DNA of 64,000 nt from positions 4,282 through 68,281 of IMG/VR virus record IMGVR_UViG_3300025108_000031. One strand, 5' to 3'. Position numbers and translations under genes: made by a program. This stretch comes from a virus. A model generated the notes under the pieces. The model was not told where the DNA came from. It saw nothing but the letters and a program-made list of their open reading frames with translations, and made no database searches. Of the stretch, positions 45,090 to 56,738 are shown piece by piece (positions within the stretch are counted from its first letter, which is position 1; each line of letters begins with the position of its first letter).

Positions 45090-45607
45090 AGTGTGTCTGA
45101 TTTAGGGATTCGAAAGAAGTGGATGCACACATCGGTTGTATCAAGCATGGCTTCACCTCGGTAAAAGATATCACCAACAAAGTCAGCCCACTCGTCCATC
45201 GGCATCGACTCAGTAGTTCCATGAATGGCATCGGTAGCTTCCTTGATGCACCCTATGTCTGTGGGTAGGTACTCACCATCGTACATGGCTTCGCAGTCTA
45301 GCTGATTCCACATCAGCCATTCTCGTGTACTGCCGTTAGCAGAATCAGGTTTGTCTGTATCCCATAGAGGGTTGACCTCAACTATTTTGAGTATCTCTTG
45401 TTCACACTCTTCTTCATTCATTGTGATGATGTCCTGTGTGCCGTCTGTATGGGTGATTACCTCTTCGTGCTCACCCTTCATCAGGAGAGCAAGGATTTTA
45501 GCCTTGTGTTCCTTGGCTTGTTCAAGTGTCTTGAAGAACTGAACTGTGGTATCGGAGTAGCCATCGGCTATTCCACATACTCCATGTATGGATGCATATA
45601 ATTTCAT
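45086..45607 (-). CDS. Acidic hypothetical early protein
   Basis: Start at the ATG at 45607, after a promoter and leader motif. Confidence 0.65.
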   Translation of the reverse strand: MKLYASIHGVCGIADGYSDTTVQFFKTLEQAKEHKAKILALLMKGEHEEVITHTDGTQDIITMNEEECEQEILKIVEVNPLWDTDKPDSANGSTREWLMWNQLDCEAMYDGEYLPTDIGCIKEATDAIHGTTESMPMDEWADFVGDIFYRGEAMLDTTDVCIHFFRIPKSDTL

Positions 45608-45643
45608 GTGATTGAGATTTTGAAGTTGGCAACATTGCCGATA

Positions 45644-45675
45644 CAAAGATACGATATTAAAACACCGATGTCAAA
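45644..45675 (-). promoter_or_regulatory. Early promoter TTGAC-N18-TATCTTTG
   Basis: Bacteroidota -33/-7 architecture with the same spacing as the other copies. Confidence 0.8.
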
Positions 45676-45676
45676 T

Positions 45677-45901
45677 TTAATCTGTAACTAACTGAAAATC
45701 AATGTATTTGAATAGCAGCTCGCTTGCTTCTTTTAATTCCTTTCGCAGTTCAGGTGAGTCATTCTCCATGAGCACGGGACAGGTGGACTGAAACTTTAGC
45801 TTGTGTGCTTGGTTGTAAATTTCATCCGTTGAGTGTGCATCTAAGTGATCGAGTATCGCCTGAGGCAATTCATGACCGATGTGTTGTTCGAAGTTTGTCA
45901 T
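45677..45901 (-). CDS. Hypothetical early protein
   Basis: MTNFEQHIG... start at 45901. Confidence 0.55.
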   Translation of the reverse strand: MTNFEQHIGHELPQAILDHLDAHSTDEIYNQAHKLKFQSTCPVLMENDSPELRKELKEASELLFKYIDFQLVTD

Positions 45902-46062
45902 AGTCGTGGTAAAAAGTGTTCGTCGTCTCGTAGCATACCGAACACATCGTGTACGATATCCTGTGCATTGATGAGATTGTTTTCTTGCGCCATCGTTTGG
46001 ATGCGCTCTGCCCAATCAGCTACGGCAGTGAAGGTTTGTTCAGTCATTTTCAGTTGTATCAT
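45898..46062 (-). CDS. 54 aa hypothetical early protein (not in the ORF track)
   Basis: MIQLKMTEQTFTAVADWAERIQ...; fills the gap with overlaps. Confidence 0.55.
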   Translation of the reverse strand: MIQLKMTEQTFTAVADWAERIQTMAQENNLINAQDIVHDVFGMLRDDEHFLPRL

Positions 46063-46375
46063 TGTCTTGGTTTTCTATTCGTCCAATAAACTCGTCGTGG
46101 ATTGTGAAGATGGCGTCCTTGATTTTACCCTTGCCACCCTTGAGTCCGAAGTACTTCTTCACGTCACTTATCTTCCAGTGTCGGTTAGGCTTCATGTCAT
46201 AATCTGCATACAGCCTGATGTCGCGCTTGGTGAGCATGAGATTGTATAGGCATCTCGGTACGTCATTGTTGTTTATGTTCAACATTTTTCGATTTTCGTC
46301 ATGCAACTCCACCCAGAATGGGGCGTTTGCATCTACATTCTTCATGAAGGCTAAGGCTTGCTTGGTTGTCATCAT
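46040..46375 (-). CDS. Hypothetical early protein
   Basis: 111 aa; MKPNRHWKISDVKKYFGLKG. Confidence 0.6.
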   Translation of the reverse strand: MMTTKQALAFMKNVDANAPFWVELHDENRKMLNINNNDVPRCLYNLMLTKRDIRLYADYDMKPNRHWKISDVKKYFGLKGGKGKIKDAIFTIHDEFIGRIENQDNDTTEND

Positions 46376-46542
46376 TGTCCTTTAATTTTTAGGTTAAAAA
46401 TTGTGCCGTCAAAGGCGTTCTCTAGTCGTGTCTTGTTACCGCCATCAGCCTTCATCCATGCTTCGATGAGTGCTGCTTCGAAGCCACCTGCATAGGGCAG
46501 CCTGGCATTGAGCCTGTCGTATTGTTCTTGTGGTCTGTTCAT
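46372..46542 (-). CDS. 56 aa hypothetical early protein (not in the ORF track)
   Basis: MNRPQEQYD...GGFEAALIEAWMKADGGNKTRLENAF; leader motif directly upstream. Confidence 0.65.
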   Translation of the reverse strand: MNRPQEQYDRLNARLPYAGGFEAALIEAWMKADGGNKTRLENAFDGTIFNLKIKGQ

Positions 46543-46560
46543 GTGTTTGAAATTTTGAAT

Positions 46561-46727
46561 TAGTAGCGATAGCGGGAGTCGAACCCACTCTGAACCGTGT
46601 CCGCCCCTCTGCCGAGGTTATCGAAGGCTGTCTTTTGAACGTTTCAGGATAGGTTAAACCCACCAAGACCTTCGAAGCGAATCGTTGCCGATGCCATTCC
46701 CTGTGTTCATGCAGGGTCATCATCGCT
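46561..46727 (-). ncRNA. tRNA-mimic structured RNA (acceptor stem and T-arm with a large inserted domain)
   Basis: 5' AGCGAUG pairs with 3' UAUCGCU followed by A-CUA; T-arm GUGGG-UUCGACU-CCCGC; internal GNRA hairpins. Confidence 0.7.
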
Positions 46728-46730
46728 ATG

Positions 46731-46930
46731 TTTCGGGGAGGGTGTACATCTCAACCTGCACACCCCCACCTACCTTGATTCGTTGTACCCACAAGGTATC
46801 GGGCAACCCTACTTGTAAGTTTGACTACACCTCAGTAAGGTGTTTGGTGTAGCCGAGTGTGTAATGAGCCGTAGACACGCCATATAGCCTACGTTTGCAG
46901 TGGTTGGTTTCGCCTAACTCACACTCATTG
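46731..46930 (-). ncRNA. Structured non-coding RNA region with a possible pseudoknot
   Basis: No ORF; consecutive stems; loop CCUUACU can pair with downstream AGUAGGG. Confidence 0.55.
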
Positions 46931-46937
46931 GGAATCT

Positions 46938-47312
46938 TTATGACAGGAAGTCAGTGACGTTGAGCTGTGCATCCTCGATGCGCAACTCTTGCATTTCGTT
47001 TGCATGGTTTAGCTTCTTAGTAAACCACAGCTTGAACTCCATCATATCCTCACCATGACAACCCCATGAGCCATTCTTGATGATGCTTCTGCGGTGTCCG
47101 TTTTGATCGTACAGGACGAGGAATGCATAGATGTATGGAGCGTTCCTTGCTCCGCCCTCTTCGAGTCGATACTCGATAGCTATCTTTCGATTTCCACCAT
47201 CTATGAAGGTGTTCGTTAGTATGGACTTGTGGTTGTCGGGGTTGGTTCCGATTACTTCCAGTCTGTCCCATGCACCCAGCAAGTGGGTTAGTTTGTTGTG
47301 TGTGCTTTTCAT
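46938..47312 (-). CDS. Hypothetical early protein
   Basis: Start at the ATG at 47312, after a promoter and leader motif. Confidence 0.65.
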   Translation of the reverse strand: MKSTHNKLTHLLGAWDRLEVIGTNPDNHKSILTNTFIDGGNRKIAIEYRLEEGGARNAPYIYAFLVLYDQNGHRRSIIKNGSWGCHGEDMMEFKLWFTKKLNHANEMQELRIEDAQLNVTDFLS

Positions 47313-47347
47313 GTAATTGAGATTTTGATTAGTGCCGATTGGCTTTG

Positions 47348-47378
47348 CAAAGATACAACATTTAAACCCTGTTGTCAA
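47348..47378 (-). promoter_or_regulatory. Early promoter TTGAC-N18-TATCTTTG
   Basis: Consensus match with conserved spacing. Confidence 0.8.
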
Positions 47379-47411
47379 GTTTTTTTTTCTAAGTCTCTGA
47401 CTTACAATGTT

Positions 47412-47594
47412 TTAGAAGGGTAATTCCTCTGCCGTTAGTAGGAACTCGTATCGCGCTTTGTCCAGGTAAGCATAGGCATCTACATCCCTGCCTTGCGCCC
47501 ACACTGCCAGACCTGTCTTTGCGTAGTGTACGCATCGCTCGCTCTTGATGGCTTCACCCTTGCGAATCATAATTTCAAATGTGCTTCGTGTCAT
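47412..47594 (-). CDS. Hypothetical early protein
   Basis: 60 aa ORF. Confidence 0.5.
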   Translation of the reverse strand: MTRSTFEIMIRKGEAIKSERCVHYAKTGLAVWAQGRDVDAYAYLDKARYEFLLTAEELPF

Positions 47595-47850
47595 GATATA
47601 CTAAAATTGATTCGATTTGAGGACTCACTTCATTGAGAAACCATGTAGCCACGCGGCTTTCAGCTTCATCCAGGTCTTCGAGGTATCCGAGTTGGTCAAC
47701 CTCTCCATCATCGCCCACTTCAGGATCAAAATAAGCTGACTCGTAAACAGCCTCATCAAAGGCATCACGCAACTCGTCATCGCTTACAGGCTTGCCTGCC
47801 TCCTTGTATGAGCATAGCATATAGAACTTCTTTTCTTTGTGATTATTCAT
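47575..47850 (-). CDS. Acidic hypothetical early protein
   Basis: 91 aa ORF. Confidence 0.6.
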   Translation of the reverse strand: MNNHKEKKFYMLCSYKEAGKPVSDDELRDAFDEAVYESAYFDPEVGDDGEVDQLGYLEDLDEAESRVATWFLNEVSPQIESILVYHDTKHI

Positions 47851-47960
47851 AATTTCTCGTCTTGGTATCTGTCATGCTGTTCGTCCGCTTGGTCGTAGTA
47901 ATCGCGCTCCTCGCATTCGTCATCTGACGGGTAGTCGTACCCTTCTCTCCATGTACTCAT
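47847..47960 (-). CDS. 37 aa highly acidic peptide (not in the ORF track)
   Basis: MSTWREGYDYPSDDECEERDYYDQADEQHDRYQDEKL; ATGA overlaps at both ends. Confidence 0.6.
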   Translation of the reverse strand: MSTWREGYDYPSDDECEERDYYDQADEQHDRYQDEKL

Positions 47961-48271
47961 TTGATTGAAGTTTCGAAGTTTGGGACTCCCAAGGTGTATC
48001 CTCGTCGAGTGTCATGTAGCATGAGCATGGGCTGCATTTCTACAGGTTCATTGATGCCCCATATATCCTTGTCATCTGTGATGACTCCTTGCTCCTTCAG
48101 GTAGACATATGCTTGCCCTACGATATCGCCTATAGCATAGTCGTATGAGAGCCACTTGGTGACGTTGTTACGTTCGTCCTTGATTCTAACCCTAGCACCT
48201 TTGGTGTTGGTTGGACTGAAAAACTCGATGTGCAAGGCACGGAGTCGGGGTATGTGATTTGTAAGATTCAT
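47957..48271 (-). CDS. Hypothetical early protein
   Basis: PTNTKGARVRI motif; start at the ATG at 48271 downstream of a hammerhead. Confidence 0.65.
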   Translation of the reverse strand: MNLTNHIPRLRALHIEFFSPTNTKGARVRIKDERNNVTKWLSYDYAIGDIVGQAYVYLKEQGVITDDKDIWGINEPVEMQPMLMLHDTRRGYTLGVPNFETSIK

Positions 48272-48290
48272 GTGTTTGAGATTTTGATTT

Positions 48291-48340
48291 GACACAGACG
48301 CTTCGCAGCGTTTCGACCACTCAGGTCTCGTCAGTGTGCC
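48291..48340 (-). ncRNA. Type I hammerhead ribozyme, copy 2
   Basis: GGCACA-CUGACGA-GACC(ugagu)GGUC-GAA-ACGCU(gcga)AGCGU-C^UGUGUC: full core and three stems. Confidence 0.93.
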
Positions 48341-48507
48341 TGACTATTGAGTCTGTGGATTTCATCGAGGAGCCACCACCTCTGCTCGTCAGTGAACGCC
48401 CCGTACGTCTGAAGCTGACGCTGCTCGAAGTACTTTGCTTTTTCCATGTTCTGCTTGAACATGTGGTAGGCAATCTTGGGTAAGTACCCGTTTTCGTATT
48501 TGCTCAT
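48331..48507 (-). CDS. 58 aa early protein flanked by hammerheads
   Basis: MSKYENGYLPKIAYH...NSQAH; leader motif before the ATG. Confidence 0.7.
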   Translation of the reverse strand: MSKYENGYLPKIAYHMFKQNMEKAKYFEQRQLQTYGAFTDEQRWWLLDEIHRLNSQAH

Positions 48508-48525
48508 GTGATTGAGATTTTGATT

Positions 48526-48575
48526 GATACAGACGCTTCTCAGCGTTTCGTCCATGCAGGACTCATCAGTGTACC
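48526..48575 (-). ncRNA. Type I hammerhead ribozyme, copy 1
   Basis: GGUACA-CUGAUGA-GUCC(ugcau)GGAC-GAA-ACGCU(gaga)AGCGU-C^UGUAUC. Confidence 0.93.
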
Positions 48576-48796
48576 TTGGGTGCTTCGTCCCACTCGTCCT
48601 TGGGTATGTCATGCCAGTCTGTCCAGTACATCATTTCATCTTCGAACGCTTCGTCCAGTGTAGCGTAGTCGTAATTCTGACAGATGCGGAGTGCATCCTT
48701 TTCATACTTTACGTAGTAGAATCCAAGACCTTCGAAGTACCAACCCTCGAACATAGGTTCGTTGGTGATTGTGCAGTAGCGGGGTGCTTTTTCCAT
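48566..48796 (-). CDS. Hypothetical early protein
   Basis: MEKAPRYCTITNEPMFEGW...YWTDW; follows a promoter and leader motif. Confidence 0.65.
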   Translation of the reverse strand: MEKAPRYCTITNEPMFEGWYFEGLGFYYVKYEKDALRICQNYDYATLDEAFEDEMMYWTDWHDIPKDEWDEAPKVH

Positions 48797-48833
48797 GTGT
48801 GAGATAATTGAGATTTTGATTTGGAAGACGATG

Positions 48834-48865
48834 CAAATATACAACATTCAAACACCGAAGTCAAA
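48834..48865 (-). promoter_or_regulatory. Early promoter TTGAC-N18-TATATTTG
   Basis: Consensus match with conserved spacing. Confidence 0.8.
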
Positions 48866-48898
48866 TTTATTTTCATTTCCTCAGTGTTTACAGGGGTT

Positions 48899-49498
48899 TC
48901 AGAGCCATCGGTTTCGTATGGTGACCCATATGATAGCCTGCAACTCGTAAGGCTTGTACCCCATGCTCCGTGCTAGCTTGCAGAAGTGCACGCTCAGTCG
49001 GTCGTATTGCAGGGGTGTTACGCTCGTCTGTACTTCCTTGGGTGTCTGCGATGTGGTCACGAAGGCACGAAGCATCCACTTGTCAATCGTAACAACAGAC
49101 TCATCCATCATACCCACATTGAGGGCGAAAGCGTGAGTTTTTCTAGCCTTGCGGAGCATTTCGATATCTCCGCTCAAGATCGCCCACGCCCTGCGTTTGT
49201 TGCTAGTGTATGTGCATACCTTGACAGACTCCATGGATTCACCATTCACGAAGGCTTGGATGAGATTGAATGCATCAATCTTGTTACGCTCCCACTTGTT
49301 GTTAGGTGAGAGTGCGCTGATGACTGCAGCCGCCACGACCTTGGATATGTTGAACGTTACCGATAGGTACTCAGCAAACTCCATGGCTGAAGCATACCAT
49401 GCTTTACCCTCTCGGATTTCGTCCTCCGTCGCACGCCCCGTCCACGATTTAACGTGAGCGGTGACGCGCTTCAGTGGGTATGTGCTTAAGCTATTCAT
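48899..49498 (-). CDS. Conserved phage protein (ALSP..W, KTxAF, VTIDxW, QAxxW family; possibly HhH-glycosylase-like fold)
   Basis: Motif pattern recalled from phage proteins; function uncertain. Confidence 0.55.
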   Translation of the reverse strand: MNSLSTYPLKRVTAHVKSWTGRATEDEIREGKAWYASAMEFAEYLSVTFNISKVVAAAVISALSPNNKWERNKIDAFNLIQAFVNGESMESVKVCTYTSNKRRAWAILSGDIEMLRKARKTHAFALNVGMMDESVVTIDKWMLRAFVTTSQTPKEVQTSVTPLQYDRLSVHFCKLARSMGYKPYELQAIIWVTIRNRWL

Positions 49499-55457: not shown

Positions 55458-55531
55458 GCTCTCTTAGCTCAGTTGGTTAGAGCGTCCGACTCATAATCGG
55501 CAGGTCCCAGGTTCAAGTCCTGGAGGGAGCA
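55458..55531 (+). tRNA. tRNA with CAT anticodon (probably Ile2, otherwise elongator Met)
   Basis: Cloverleaf GCTCTCT/AGGGAGC, anticodon loop CT-CAT-AA, T-loop TTCAAGT; no encoded CCA. Confidence 0.9.
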
Positions 55532-55534
55532 CTC

Positions 55535-55608
55535 GCACCAGTAGCTCAGTTGGATAGAGCATCTGCCTTCTAAGCAGACGGTCACAGGTTCGAGCCCTGT
55601 CTGGTGTA
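55535..55608 (+). tRNA. tRNA-Arg(TCT)
   Basis: Cloverleaf GCACCAG/CTGGTGT, anticodon arm TCTGC-CTTCTAA-GCAGA. Confidence 0.92.
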
Positions 55609-55622
55609 CTAATTTAATTGAA

Positions 55623-56738
55623 ATGAAAAAACCAACAGTCTGTCTTAGTATGATCGTTAAGGACGAAGAGAAGGATATCGAGAGATGTCTGAAGAGCGTC
55701 TATAAGTATATCGACTACTGGGTCATCATAGATACAGGTTCTACGGATAAAACCGTCAAGAAGATTAAATCTCTGATGAAGAACAGATTCAAAGTTCCTG
55801 GAGAGATACACGAGCGCCCATGGGTGGACTTCTCTCACAATAGGAATGAGTCTCTAGAGATCGCAGAGACCAAGGGGGATTACGTTATGTTTATGGATGC
55901 GGATGATATATTCATTCCAGAGAAGTCTTTCTCAATGAATTTCTTAAGTGATAAGTATCAAGCATACCACTCTTACTTTAAGATACATTCAAGTAAGTTC
56001 AAAAGATGCCTTATAGTTGATTCCTCTATGGGTTGGAGGTATAAAGGGGTCATGCATGAACATATTGTCATTCCCAAGAATTCTAATCAGGCGATAATTC
56101 CAAATCTATTTATTGAGGCCAATGCCTCCCCCCTTAAACGCTTCCCTACAGAGAAGGAGAAGTACTTAAATGATGCTAAGATTATAGAGGAGGATTTATT
56201 GAAAGACCCTGAAAATACTAGAAGCTGGTTTTATCTAGCTCAGTGTTATGGGGATGCTGGTGAGCCTGAGAAATCCATGGAGGCTTACGTGAAAAGATCA
56301 TCAATGGGAGGATTCAGGGAGGAAGTATATCTTTCCCTATATAGGATAGCTTTGAATATGATTGAGTTGAACAAACCAAAGATCGAGGTTATTGAAGCCT
56401 TATCTAAGGCTTGGGAGTATATGCCTTACAGGAAAGAGGCTCCATCTGCTCTCATGAGCGCACTGATCAAGGATGGGAGGAACTTCTTGGCTTTTACTTA
56501 TGGGGACATGACAGTAAAGTCCATCCAGGTATTCGGAGAGAGTAAGGAGCTATTTGAGATGGAGCAAGCCACCAATGATATGTTTCCGAGGTATTACGGT
56601 CTTGCAGCTGAGAAGTGCGGATTCTATCCCATCGCTGTGGCCTCATATAAGATCCTGCTTAAGAATAATCCAGATACGATAAAGTCAAAGGAGCTTCAAA
56701 AGAAAATTAAAGAATTAGAAGAGAAATGTTCAGTGTAG
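55623..56738 (+). CDS. GT2 glycosyltransferase with TPR-like C-terminus
   Basis: CLSMIVKDE, DTGSTD, DAD, HE, R.WFYLAQ. Confidence 0.85.
   Translation: MKKPTVCLSMIVKDEEKDIERCLKSVYKYIDYWVIIDTGSTDKTVKKIKSLMKNRFKVPGEIHERPWVDFSHNRNESLEIAETKGDYVMFMDADDIFIPEKSFSMNFLSDKYQAYHSYFKIHSSKFKRCLIVDSSMGWRYKGVMHEHIVIPKNSNQAIIPNLFIEANASPLKRFPTEKEKYLNDAKIIEEDLLKDPENTRSWFYLAQCYGDAGEPEKSMEAYVKRSSMGGFREEVYLSLYRIALNMIELNKPKIEVIEALSKAWEYMPYRKEAPSALMSALIKDGRNFLAFTYGDMTVKSIQVFGESKELFEMEQATNDMFPRYYGLAAEKCGFYPIAVASYKILLKNNPDTIKSKELQKKIKELEEKCSV

What the first reader, a model, noticed from the sequence alone, without database searches (positions are those of the whole stretch)
46561..46727. tRNA-mimic ncRNA with acceptor stem and T-arm but a large domain replacing the D and anticodon arms
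Seen (- strand): a 7-bp acceptor AGCGAUG/UAUCGCU, discriminator A then CUA (the same ACTA ending as the phage tRNA-Arg), and a canonical 5-bp T-arm with a UUCGACU loop. About 130 nt lie between, with hairpins CCCUG/CAGGG, AUCG-GCAA-CGAU, UCGAAGG/CCUUCGA and CCUC-GGCA-GAGG. It is not a normal tRNA, and it lacks the GGGGC...CCA alanine identity and the length of tmRNA. It ends immediately before the leader motif of the next gene. Inference: either an RNase P/RNase Z processing signal that cuts the early transcript as the hammerheads do, or a stable RNA acting as a decoy for tRNA-targeting defences or Ro60/Y-RNA-type binders.
Basis: partly seen in the sequence, partly recalled or inferred. Interest (0 to 1): 0.8.

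Follow-up and report, generated by a model that had tools for sequence, protein, structure and literature searches.

The report
tRNA-like RNA module in phage operon
A marine flavobacterial phage carries, between two early genes, a conserved 165-base RNA with the ends of a tRNA but a large folded domain in place of the anticodon half, most likely a mark where host tRNA-trimming enzymes cut the phage message.

Summary
On the minus strand, 46727-46563 has a 7-bp acceptor stem, a 5-bp T-stem with a tRNA-type T-loop, discriminator A and about 130 nt between them. It is not a tRNA, tmRNA or YrlA by ARAGORN and Rfam. It is real: 31 instances (18 distinct sequences) occur in viral and marine metagenome contigs. 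All keep the same boundaries, ACAU|AGCG...GCUAC|, whatever lies on either side. Fifty proposed pairs are 99.9% kept. There are two compensatory pairs, one in a newly seen pseudoknot. Relatives carry the same tRNA-like ends around unrelated interiors of 41-129 nt, and their acceptor stems covary.

The element lies inside a promoter-to-promoter unit and ends 21 nt before the next start codon. Elsewhere in the same operon that leader follows a promoter or a hammerhead ribozyme, and in a relative it follows a real tRNA-Leu.

Best reading (0.55): a t-element-like RNase P/RNase Z processing module that severs the message and releases a discrete structured RNA. The interior is more conserved than neighbouring third-codon positions, so a function of the released RNA itself (0.25) remains open. 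Cleavage is inferred, not shown. I rate it a new variant of a known kind.

The parts
46728..46731 (-). Conserved 4-nt lead-in ACAU just 5' of the acceptor stem, proposed as the RNase P leader with U at -1
   Evidence: 30 of 31 type I-a instances have acat and 1 has atat, whatever module lies upstream. BLAST homology to relatives starts at intergenic positions 210-212, which is 46731-46729.
46721..46727 (-). Acceptor stem, 5' strand AGCGAUG
   Evidence: Pairs with 46565-46571 in 18 of 18 distinct sequences. Positions 3 and 7 change on one side and stay paired.
46698..46716 (-). Hairpin P2 (CCCUG-CAUGAACA-CAGGG) in the D-arm position. Its loop bases 46709-46705 (UGAAC) form the 5' half of a pseudoknot.
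   Evidence: Pseudoknot pair column 23:88 is C-G in 10 sequences and U-A in 8.
46681..46692 (-). Hairpin P3, AUCG-GCAA-CGAU
   Evidence: Invariant in 18 of 18 sequences.
46601..46680 (-). Large domain in place of the anticodon arm. It holds closing helix P4 (46680-46676 with 46605-46601), P5 (46675-46668 with 46628-46621), hairpin P6 (46664-46648), the pseudoknot 3' half GUUCA(A) (46640-46635) and hairpin P7 (46617-46606).
   Evidence: Alignment fold and pair counts. P6 carries compensatory pair 70:74 (C-G in 10, U-A in 8) and two pairs that change on one side only.
46572..46588 (-). T-arm GUGGG-UUCGACU-CCCGC
   Evidence: Rfam tmRNA model positions 347-363, 12.7 bits. Loop positions U54 U55 C56 A58 are invariant and position 57 is always a purine in 18 of 18 sequences.
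46565..46571 (-). Acceptor stem, 3' strand UAUCGCU
46563..46564 (-). Discriminator A (46564) and conserved C (46563). This is the proposed RNase Z site and the end of homology with all relatives.
   Evidence: All 31 instances end GCTAC and then diverge into at least five different downstream sequences.
46543..46562 (-). Leader of the next gene (UAAUUCAAAAUUUCAAACAC), holding the recurrent leader motif. With C 46563 it makes a 21-nt leader if the cut falls after the discriminator.
   Evidence: The motif occurs 6 times on the minus strand between 45600 and 48900.
46372..46542 (-). Downstream 56-aa ORF, function unknown
   Evidence: No Pfam or PHROGs family.
46938..47312 (-). Upstream 124-aa ORF, function unknown. 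The likely ATG is at 47312, after the leader motif.
   Evidence: No Pfam or PHROGs family.
46732..46937 (-). Two further non-coding modules between the upstream stop codon and the element: A (46937-46858) and B (46857-46732). Each is present or absent as a block in relatives.
   Evidence: BLAST of the 398-nt intergenic region and sequences. No Rfam match at E up to 10.
47350..47378 (-). Promoter-like site TTGACA-17-TATCTT heading the unit that contains the element
   Evidence: The next such site on this strand is 45674-45646. No minus-strand terminator-like site lies in 45400-47500.

Best explanation
The element is a tRNA-like processing module, the phage counterpart of the 't-elements' of plant mitochondria. 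It is transcribed inside a polycistronic early message that starts at the promoter near 47378. The acceptor stem stacked on the T-arm offers host RNase P and a 3' tRNA endonuclease (RNase Z or an equivalent) the same 12-bp 'top half' and T-loop that they recognise on pre-tRNAs.

RNase P would cut between U 46728 and A 46727. The 3' enzyme would cut after discriminator A 46564, or one base later. This would do three things. It would sever the message of the upstream 124-aa gene, with its structured A and B tail. It would free the downstream message with a short, unstructured 21-nt leader. And it would release a discrete RNA of about 164-165 nt.

Shown here: the structure, its conservation, its fixed boundaries, its position inside a transcription unit, and its positional equivalence with promoters, hammerheads and a real tRNA. 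Inferred: both cleavages, the enzymes involved, and the fate of the released RNA.
For: (1) A tRNA top half under selection. The acceptor is paired in 18 of 18 sequences, with changes that keep pairing. T-loop positions 54, 55, 56 and 58 are invariant and position 57 is always a purine.

(2) Across other element types in relatives the acceptor covaries: AGCGAGU/GCUUGCU, GGCUUAC/GUAAGUC, AGCGGCU/AGCCGCU and AGCGGUU/AACCGCU. In those loci 15 of 19 coding-strand T-arms have a perfect 7-bp partner against 2.5 expected. On the opposite strand the figure is 0 of 4.

(3) Boundaries are fixed at ACAU|A...GCUA C| in 31 of 31 instances (one has AUAU). The upstream flank is module B in 23, module A in 5 and a stop codon in 3. 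The downstream flank is the leader in 7, module D in 19, module E in 2 and something else in 3.

(4) The interior is dispensable for whatever the types share. Interiors of 41, 52, 72, 81, 129 and 161-163 nt sit in the same frame.

(5) Position. The six leader motifs are preceded by promoters three times, by full-core type I hammerheads twice (RF00163 at 22.2 and 21.3 bits, below the gathering score of 34) and by this element once. The resulting leaders would be 24-25 nt for the hammerheads and 21 nt for the element. In L019 a real tRNA-Leu is followed by the same CUAAUUUUCAAAAUCUC leader. In the window tRNA-Arg is followed by ACUAAU and then a gene.

(6) No promoter-like or terminator-like site lies between 47350 and 45674 on this strand.

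(7) The phage's own tRNA genes do not encode CCA. By established tRNA biology, host 3' trimming and CCA addition must therefore act on phage transcripts.

(8) The element matches the GGTTCRANYCC motif used to define t-elements, which RNase P and RNase Z cut to make mRNA ends (PMC1920247, abstract and passages read).
Against: No RNA end is shown. The only RNA data are assembled contigs, which cannot show ends. A 199-nt RNA-library contig does stop exactly at 46563, but that is also the point where variants diverge, so an assembly break is expected there in any case.

In 24 of 31 instances the element is not next to the leader. Another structured module follows it instead. Making the leader's 5' end therefore cannot be its only role.

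The 125-nt interior is more conserved than a spacer needs to be: 87-95% identity against 79-86% at third-codon positions of the adjacent gene in 7 of 7 comparisons. It also has a covarying pseudoknot. This points to a function of the RNA body.

Covariation inside this type is thin. Of 50 pairs, 2 are compensatory and 42 never vary, and the sequences fall into essentially two clades.

The single-sequence fold is not better than shuffles (z = -1.38).

No D-loop GG partner for the T-loop is evident, so a true tRNA elbow is not demonstrated.
Confidence: 0.55

Rival explanations
1. The point of the locus is the released RNA. On this reading the tRNA-like ends are a natural 'tRNA scaffold' that gets a structured 125-nt cargo excised, end-protected (perhaps CCA-tailed) and accumulated. 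The cargo then acts in trans during early infection, for example by binding a host or phage protein or by soaking up a factor that recognises tRNA acceptor ends. Processing of the flanking messages would be a by-product.
For: The interior is more conserved than third-codon positions next door in 7 of 7 comparisons. A 37-column stretch is invariant in 18 of 18 sequences, loops included. There is a covarying pseudoknot between the P2 loop and the large domain. Near-identical acceptor and T-arm frames carry unrelated interiors, types I-a and I-b, like exchangeable cargo. Most copies are not adjacent to a leader (24 of 31). The laboratory tRNA scaffold has the same design: acceptor, T and D arms are kept and the anticodon arm is replaced by an insert, which then survives in bacteria (PMC3753655, passages read).
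Against: No partner is known. Neighbouring proteins have no family. No antisense target of 13 nt or more lies in the window, and the one 12-nt antisense match is about what chance gives. A 41-nt form with almost no interior persists in L027. There is no evidence of accumulation, since contig depth cannot rank RNA levels. High identity could partly reflect recent exchange of modules between co-occurring phages.
Confidence: 0.25
2. The element is a decayed or rearranged tRNA gene, or a recombination module. On this reading the conserved ends are kept because they act as homology patches for exchanging cassettes between related phages, and there is no RNA-level function.
For: Module boundaries coincide with the element's ends, and flanks are mosaic. 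Many contigs break at or inside the element (L002, L005, L009, L014), as expected for a repeat shared by co-occurring genomes. Bacterial tRNA-Met(CAU) and tRNA-Glu genes share the GGTTCGANTCC....ATCGCTA ending (107 of the 121 matches in 120 loci lie in a called tRNA).
Against: DNA-level homology patches need no base pairing. Yet the 5' and 3' strands covary across types, and all changes inside this type keep pairing. The T-loop keeps exactly the tRNA-invariant positions. The element always lies on the transcribed strand of the early operon (0 of 4 opposite-strand T-arms have a partner). ARAGORN finds no tRNA even when introns are allowed.
Confidence: 0.1
3. The element is a chargeable tRNA or tmRNA mimic. 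On this reading it is CCA-tailed and aminoacylated, and it acts in translation or ribosome rescue.
For: It has a full 7-bp acceptor stem, a discriminator and a tRNA-type T-arm. The only Rfam hits are to the T-arm of tmRNA models.
Against: The match covers 17 nt at 12.7 bits, against a gathering score of 47. ARAGORN finds no tmRNA. The third acceptor pair is C-G, or U-G in L006, not the G3:U70 of alanine identity. The only ORF through the element (46445-46723) is broken by 1-nt indels in relatives. No anticodon arm is present.
Confidence: 0.04
4. The element is a phage attachment site that carries part of a host tRNA gene.
For: Phage attachment sites often contain the 3' part of a tRNA gene (established knowledge).
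Against: No tyrosine integrase (PF00589) and no serine recombinase (PF00239) is found in the 68,281-base record, which is rated 100% complete. Both searches found the family in 14 and 12 of 14 control genomes. An attachment site does not need the 5' acceptor strand, which is present here and covaries.
Confidence: 0.02

Closest known systems
t-elements of plant mitochondria (Forner et al. 2007, PMC1920247; abstract and passages read)
   Same: Both are non-canonical tRNA-like folds that keep the acceptor stem and a T-arm with GGTTCRANYCC. Both sit at the ends of protein-coding messages in polycistronic transcripts. In mitochondria they are cut by RNase P and RNase Z, and the released element can persist and gain C/A tails.
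   Different: This one is in a phage of Flavobacteriia, not an organelle. At 165 nt it is about twice as long, with a conserved pseudoknotted domain. No transcript ends are mapped here. It belongs to a set of interchangeable modules that share the same acceptor and T-arm frame.
Hammerhead ribozymes flanking genes in phage and prophage operons (Perreault et al. 2011, PMC3088659; passages read)
   Same: The proposed job is the same: cutting long phage transcripts into gene-length messages. Two hammerheads do this in the same operon of this window, directly before the same leader motif.
   Different: Hammerheads cut themselves and leave a 5'-OH. This element has no ribozyme core and would depend on host tRNA enzymes, leaving a 5'-phosphate.
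Laboratory 'tRNA scaffold' for recombinant RNA (Ponchon et al. 2013, PMC3753655; passages read)
   Same: The acceptor stem and T-arm are kept and the anticodon arm is replaced by an arbitrary structured insert. The design relies on cellular tRNA processing for precise ends and stability.
   Different: The scaffold is man-made and keeps a true D-arm. Here the hairpin in the D position pairs with the insert rather than, as far as can be seen, with the T-loop.
YrlA, the bacterial and phage Y RNA (Chen et al. 2014, PMC4201824; abstract and passages read)
   Same: It is a non-coding RNA with a tRNA-like domain including a T-arm. The Mycobacterium smegmatis form, which has a 7-bp acceptor-like stem, is cut by RNase P and gains CCA. 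It also occurs in phages.
   Different: YrlA is encoded next to Ro60, and its 5' and 3' ends form the Ro-binding stem in the anticodon position. Here there is no Ro60 gene, the ends form the acceptor stem, and no Rfam family other than a T-arm match scored.
tmRNA tRNA-like domain (Rfam RF00023)
   Same: Both have an acceptor stem plus T-arm without an anticodon arm, and a large pseudoknotted body between them.
   Different: Only the 17-nt T-arm matches, at 12.7 bits against 47. There is no G3:U70 and no conserved tag frame, and the RNA is less than half the usual tmRNA length.
mascRNA of MALAT1, and the tRNA-like RNAs ahead of the microRNA hairpins of murine gammaherpesvirus 68 (recalled; for mascRNA only search listings were seen)
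   Same: These are tRNA-like folds inside a longer transcript that RNase P and/or RNase Z use to make the ends of the neighbouring RNA while releasing a small tRNA-like RNA.
   Different: They are eukaryotic nuclear systems. Those elements are close to tRNA size and have an anticodon-arm equivalent.

Membership tests
Canonical tRNA (Rfam RF00005; ARAGORN) | Cloverleaf with a D-arm and an anticodon arm, detectable by tRNA finders | tested here: not met
   ARAGORN finds only tRNA-Met and tRNA-Arg in the window. Rfam at gathering threshold gives the same two. No tRNA match appears at E up to 10 on 46400-46900. ARAGORN with introns allowed finds nothing in 7 of 7 element types.
Canonical tRNA (Rfam RF00005; ARAGORN) | 7-bp acceptor stem, 5-bp T-stem and 7-nt T-loop UUCRANY | tested here: met
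   The T-loop positions are conserved in 18 of 18 sequences.
tmRNA (RF00023) | Full-length match to the family model or an ARAGORN tmRNA call | tested here: not met
   Only model positions 347-363 match, at 12.7 bits against a gathering score of 47. ARAGORN finds none.
tmRNA (RF00023) | G3:U70 alanine identity pair (recalled as the defining identity element) | tested here: not met
   The third acceptor pair is C-G in 17 of 18 sequences and U-G in 1.
tmRNA (RF00023) | Conserved internal tag reading frame | tested here: not met
   The one ORF through the element (46445-46723) is shifted by 1-nt gaps at alignment columns 27, 79, 87 and 92 in relatives.
YrlA / bacterial Y RNA | Encoded next to a Ro60 (TROVE) gene | tested here: not met
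   PF05731 has no match in the 68,281-base record. The control search found it in Deinococcus and Bacteroides.
YrlA / bacterial Y RNA | 5' and 3' ends form the Ro-binding stem, and the tRNA-like domain is internal (PMC4201824) | tested here: not met
   Here the 5' and 3' ends form the acceptor stem. No Rfam family other than the tmRNA T-arm scored at E up to 10.
t-elements (a functional class, not a sequence family) | T-arm motif GGTTCRANYCC within a non-canonical tRNA-like fold that has an acceptor stem (PMC1920247) | tested here: met
   GGTTCGACTCC lies at 46585-46575, and the acceptor stem is kept in 18 of 18 sequences.
t-elements (a functional class, not a sequence family) | The ends of the element coincide with mapped mRNA termini, and RNase P and RNase Z cut there | not testable with these tools
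   Only assembled contigs of RNA libraries were available, and these cannot show RNA ends.
Phage attachment site carrying a tRNA gene fragment | An integrase is encoded by the phage | tested here: not met
   PF00589 and PF00239 have no match in the record, which is rated 100% complete.

The most novel reading that the evidence does not exclude
Marine flavobacterial phages use a natural 'tRNA scaffold'. One shared acceptor and T-arm frame carries interchangeable structured cargo RNAs: type I-a of 165 nt with a pseudoknot, type I-b of 129 nt, and others. Host tRNA-maturation enzymes cut these out of the early message and stabilise them. The released RNAs would then act in trans early in infection, for instance as sponges for a host factor or defence protein that recognises tRNA acceptor ends. 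On this reading, message punctuation is only the secondary effect.
Probability: 0.25. Interest if true: 0.8.

Novelty: new variant of a known kind. Interest (0 to 1): 0.6.

Why it matters
If the reading holds, DNA phages of Bacteroidota divide their early multi-gene messages with three interchangeable devices in front of one leader sequence: promoters, self-cutting hammerheads, and tRNA look-alikes that borrow the host's RNase P and RNase Z. That extends the 'tRNA punctuation' and t-element principle from organelles to phages. It also gives a testable case of how messages get short, unstructured leaders in bacteria that do not use Shine-Dalgarno sequences.

The 165-nt RNA is also a new conserved, pseudoknotted RNA family with no Rfam entry. 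It sits in a scaffold that resembles an engineering trick invented independently in the laboratory. Four literature searches found no paper that describes such elements in phages. Papers outside the held library could not be checked.

Tried and rejected
- blastn of the 701-nt region against 50,697 phage records found no match.
- Rfam at permissive thresholds on the element, on modules A and B, and on seven related loci gave nothing but T-arm matches and one chance lncRNA hit.
- ARAGORN at lowered thresholds gave calls that ignore the element's boundaries, so I discarded them.
- Earlier notes of this scan hold nothing on this genome or this sequence.
- RNA-library runs: all four laid runs are assembled contigs. 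The element is covered in all four (X19-X22, three studies). But DNA carry-over cannot be excluded and ends cannot be read. The contig stop at 46563 coincides with the point where variants branch. I do not count this as evidence of transcription or of cleavage.
- Search for a trans target in the window found no antisense match of 13 nt or more, and one 12-mer at about the chance expectation.
- A scan of 185,579 species genomes for the T-arm plus acceptor ending found ordinary tRNA-Met, tRNA-Glu, tRNA-Leu and tRNA-Arg genes and 13 unrelated or truncated matches. It found no cellular homologue of the element.
- Pfam and PHROGs on the neighbouring small proteins gave no informative family.
- No CCA-adding enzyme gene (PF01743) is in the phage.
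- Alignment of type I-a with the other types shows no homology between interiors.
- Coding was rejected because indels break the frame.

Full report
WHAT IS THERE

The window is bases 4282-68281 of a 68,281-base viral record rated 100% complete. A structural protein has its only matches, at about 32% identity, in phages of Flavobacterium, Cellulophaga and Maribacter plus one unclassified Caudoviricetes record, 85 records in all. Early promoters have the TTG...TAnnTTTG look of Bacteroidota. I recall the name and form of that promoter type; it comes from no call.

The element lies on the minus strand in a 395-nt gap. Upstream is a 124-aa ORF (46938-47312). Downstream is a 56-aa ORF (46372-46542). 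Neither has a known family.

- acceptor AGCGAUG/UAUCGCU
- T-arm GUGGG-UUCGACU-CCCGC
- discriminator A followed by CUA
- four internal hairpins
- the leader motif of the next gene directly behind it

NOT A KNOWN RNA

ARAGORN and Rfam at gathering thresholds find only tRNA-Met and tRNA-Arg in the window. A permissive Rfam scan gives a 17-nt T-arm match to the tmRNA model at 12.7 bits, against a gathering score of 47, and nothing else of note. ARAGORN with introns allowed finds nothing.

The one ORF that runs through the element is broken by single-base indels in relatives.

IS IT MORE THAN CHANCE?

Taken alone, no. A strict scan for a T-arm plus a 7-bp acceptor gives 3 hits in the window (two tRNAs and this element). 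Shuffled windows give 0.8 hits on average. The fold energy has z = -1.38.

Comparison settles it. Searches with the two flanking proteins gave 12 and 19 viral loci. An 18-base word gave 50 metagenome loci, and 25 of them hold the element. Together with the window that makes 31 full-length instances and 18 distinct sequences.

All 31 start ...ACAU|AGCG (one has AUAU) and end ...GCUAC|. The flanks differ:
- Upstream: module B in 23, module A in 5, the stop codon of the preceding gene in 3.
- Downstream: the leader of a gene in 7, a structured module D in 19, a module E in 2, other sequence in 3.

The element is therefore a self-contained unit whose limits are exactly the ends of the tRNA-like fold.

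STRUCTURE

On the 18 distinct sequences (alignment A2) I counted 50 pairs in 9 helices: the acceptor, P2, P3, P4, P5, P6, P7, the T-arm and a pseudoknot.
- 99.9% of 898 cells pair, against 38-51% when the 3' partners are slid by 1-3 columns.
- 42 pairs never vary.
- 5 vary on one side and stay paired.
- 1 (column 12:30) departs in a single unpaired cell.
- 2 are compensatory.

One compensatory pair is in hairpin P6 (70:74, C-G in 10 and U-A in 8). The other is in a pseudoknot that I noticed between the loop of P2 (UGAAC) and GUUCA inside the large domain (23:88, C-G in 10 and U-A in 8).

The two pairs split the sequences differently, because L047 and L067 are recombinant. So they are not one inherited event. 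Even so the sequences form essentially two clades, and the covariation is modest.

The T-loop keeps U54, U55, C56 and A58 invariant and position 57 a purine in 18 of 18. That is the tRNA pattern.

The element is 87-95% identical to seven relatives. Third-codon positions of the adjacent gene are 79-86% identical in the same pairs. A 37-column block is invariant, loops included.

A FAMILY OF FRAMES WITH DIFFERENT INTERIORS

Related loci carry the same kind of acceptor plus T-arm around unrelated interiors:
- 129 nt (L019, L022, L028)
- 41 nt (L027, which looks like a deletion form)
- 72 nt (L029, acceptor AGCGAGU/GCUUGCU)
- 81 nt (L032, GGCUUAC/GUAAGUC)
- a second group of 81 nt and 52 nt (AGCGGCU/AGCCGCU and AGCGGUU/AACCGCU)

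Each folds with the acceptor and T-arm in its minimum-energy structure.

I then started from T-arms alone, to avoid selecting for pairing. On the coding strand, 15 of 19 distinct T-arms have a perfect 7-bp partner 35-260 nt upstream, against 2.5 expected from shuffled 3' strands. On the other strand the count is 0 of 4. The four coding-strand T-arms without a partner are a real tRNA-Leu and three elements with a shorter or mismatched stem.

CONTEXT AND MECHANISM

On this strand, promoter-like sites lie at 47378-47350 and 45674-45646. Nothing promoter-like or terminator-like lies between them. The element is therefore inside a multi-gene transcript.

A leader motif (UCAAAAUCUCAAU.ACAUG and variants) precedes six genes between 45600 and 48900. 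It is preceded:
- three times by a promoter
- twice by a type I hammerhead with a complete catalytic core (RF00163, whole model matched, 22.2 and 21.3 bits, below the gathering score of 34)
- once by this element

By my count, the hammerheads would leave leaders of 24 and 25 nt. A cut after the discriminator here would leave 21 nt. In L019 a real tRNA-Leu stands directly before the same leader. In the window tRNA-Arg ends ACUAAU and is followed by a gene 13 bases later.

This positional equivalence is the main argument that the tRNA-like ends are used as cutting sites: RNase P at U 46728 | A 46727, and a 3' tRNA endonuclease after A 46564. The conserved ACAU lead-in, with U at -1, agrees with what I recall of bacterial RNase P leader preferences. 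That is recalled, not tested.

The closest described systems are:
- the t-elements of plant mitochondria, defined by the same GGTTCRANYCC arm and shown to make mRNA ends through RNase P and RNase Z (PMC1920247)
- hammerheads flanking phage genes (PMC3088659)

WHAT ARGUES FOR MORE THAN A CUTTING MARK

In 24 of 31 copies another structured module, not the leader, follows the element. The interior is long, conserved beyond its stems, and pseudoknotted.

The design matches the laboratory tRNA scaffold: acceptor and T-arm kept, and the anticodon arm replaced by an insert (PMC3753655). That scaffold is used to have RNAs processed and stabilised in bacteria.

I found no partner and no target.

WHAT I COULD NOT SHOW

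No RNA ends. The only RNA-library data are assembled contigs. The element is covered in 4 of 4 runs laid, from three studies, and one 199-nt contig stops exactly at 46563. But that is also where variants branch, and DNA carry-over is possible.

REJECTED READINGS
- Attachment site: no integrase or resolvase.
- Y RNA: no Ro60 gene, and reversed topology.
- tmRNA: no identity pair and no tag frame.

EARLIER NOTES OF THIS SCAN

Notes on other genomes reach a similar t-element reading for shorter phage minihelices. I treated them as leads. The claims I rely on were tested here.

VERDICT

The feature is real. It is a new RNA family with no Rfam entry. Most likely it is a phage version of a tRNA-like processing element, with an unusually large and conserved body whose own role is open.

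Noticed in passing
window 48527-48574 (-) and 48291-48340 (-): Two type I hammerhead ribozymes with complete cores (CUGAUGAG/CUGACGAG ... CGAAAC ... GUC|) sit directly before the leader motif of the next gene. They match RF00163 over the whole model at 22.2 and 21.3 bits, below the gathering score of 34, so the default Rfam scan missed them.
   Followed up: partly
window 46858-46937 (-), module A: This is an 80-nt non-coding block after the stop codon of the 124-aa gene. It is 100% identical over 82-83 nt in L005, L007 and L009, although the gene itself differs. By eye, the hairpin GUAGGC...GUCUAC changes to GUAAGC...GCUUAC in L029 with pairing kept. No Rfam match.
   Followed up: partly
window 46732-46857 (-), module B: This 126-nt block is present or absent as a unit in relatives. 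By eye, hairpin CUACACC/GGUGUAG becomes CUACAUC/GAUGUAG in L012, a compensatory change. It ends in a G+C-rich hairpin (GGGGGUGU...ACACCCUCCCC) with no U tract. No Rfam match.
   Followed up: partly
L011:4772-4870 (+) and 13 further loci, module D: This block of about 98 nt follows the element in 19 of 31 copies. By eye it forms an H-type pseudoknot. Helices CUGACC/GGUCAG and CAGGUA/UACCUG interleave, and both change in a compensatory way in L012/L013 (CCCACC/GGUGGG and CUGGUA/UACCAG). No Rfam match in the loci scanned.
   Followed up: partly
L010:4568-4640, L015:4790-4866, L019:3121-3150 (+), module E: A further shared non-coding block begins (A)UUGG(A/G)CGGUGUUACAAAUCACC. It follows tRNA-like elements of several types or follows module D.
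   Followed up: no
L006:4568-4665 (+): A second tRNA-like element with a good T-arm (GUGGG-UUCGAUU-CCCAU) but only a 4-5-bp acceptor follows the first one directly, so the two are in tandem.
   Followed up: no
L002, L005, L009, L014, L050, L071, L075 (contig ends): Many assembled contigs end inside or at the edges of these intergenic modules. This fits modules shared by co-occurring phage variants breaking the assembly graph. It does not fit physical genome ends.
   Followed up: partly
window 48737-48723 (-): The 15-nt word CUUCGAAGGUCUUGG from the element's P5 region recurs in the same sense inside the ORF 48566-48799. By rough arithmetic the chance expectation is about 0.02. Its meaning is unknown.
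   Followed up: no
window 55458-55609 (+): tRNA-Met(CAU) and tRNA-Arg(UCU) are 2 nt apart and neither encodes CCA. tRNA-Arg is followed after 13 nt by the ATG of a 371-aa ORF (55623-56738), the same tRNA-then-gene layout on the other strand.
   Followed up: partly
window 45600-48900 (-): Six copies of a leader motif (UCAAAAUCUCAAU.ACAUG) occur, and the promoters have a Bacteroidota-type -7 box (TAnnTTTG). Read in frame, the motif gives the spurious peptide NQNLNHM at the front of several long ORF calls, so ORF callers are likely to place starts too early.
   Followed up: partly
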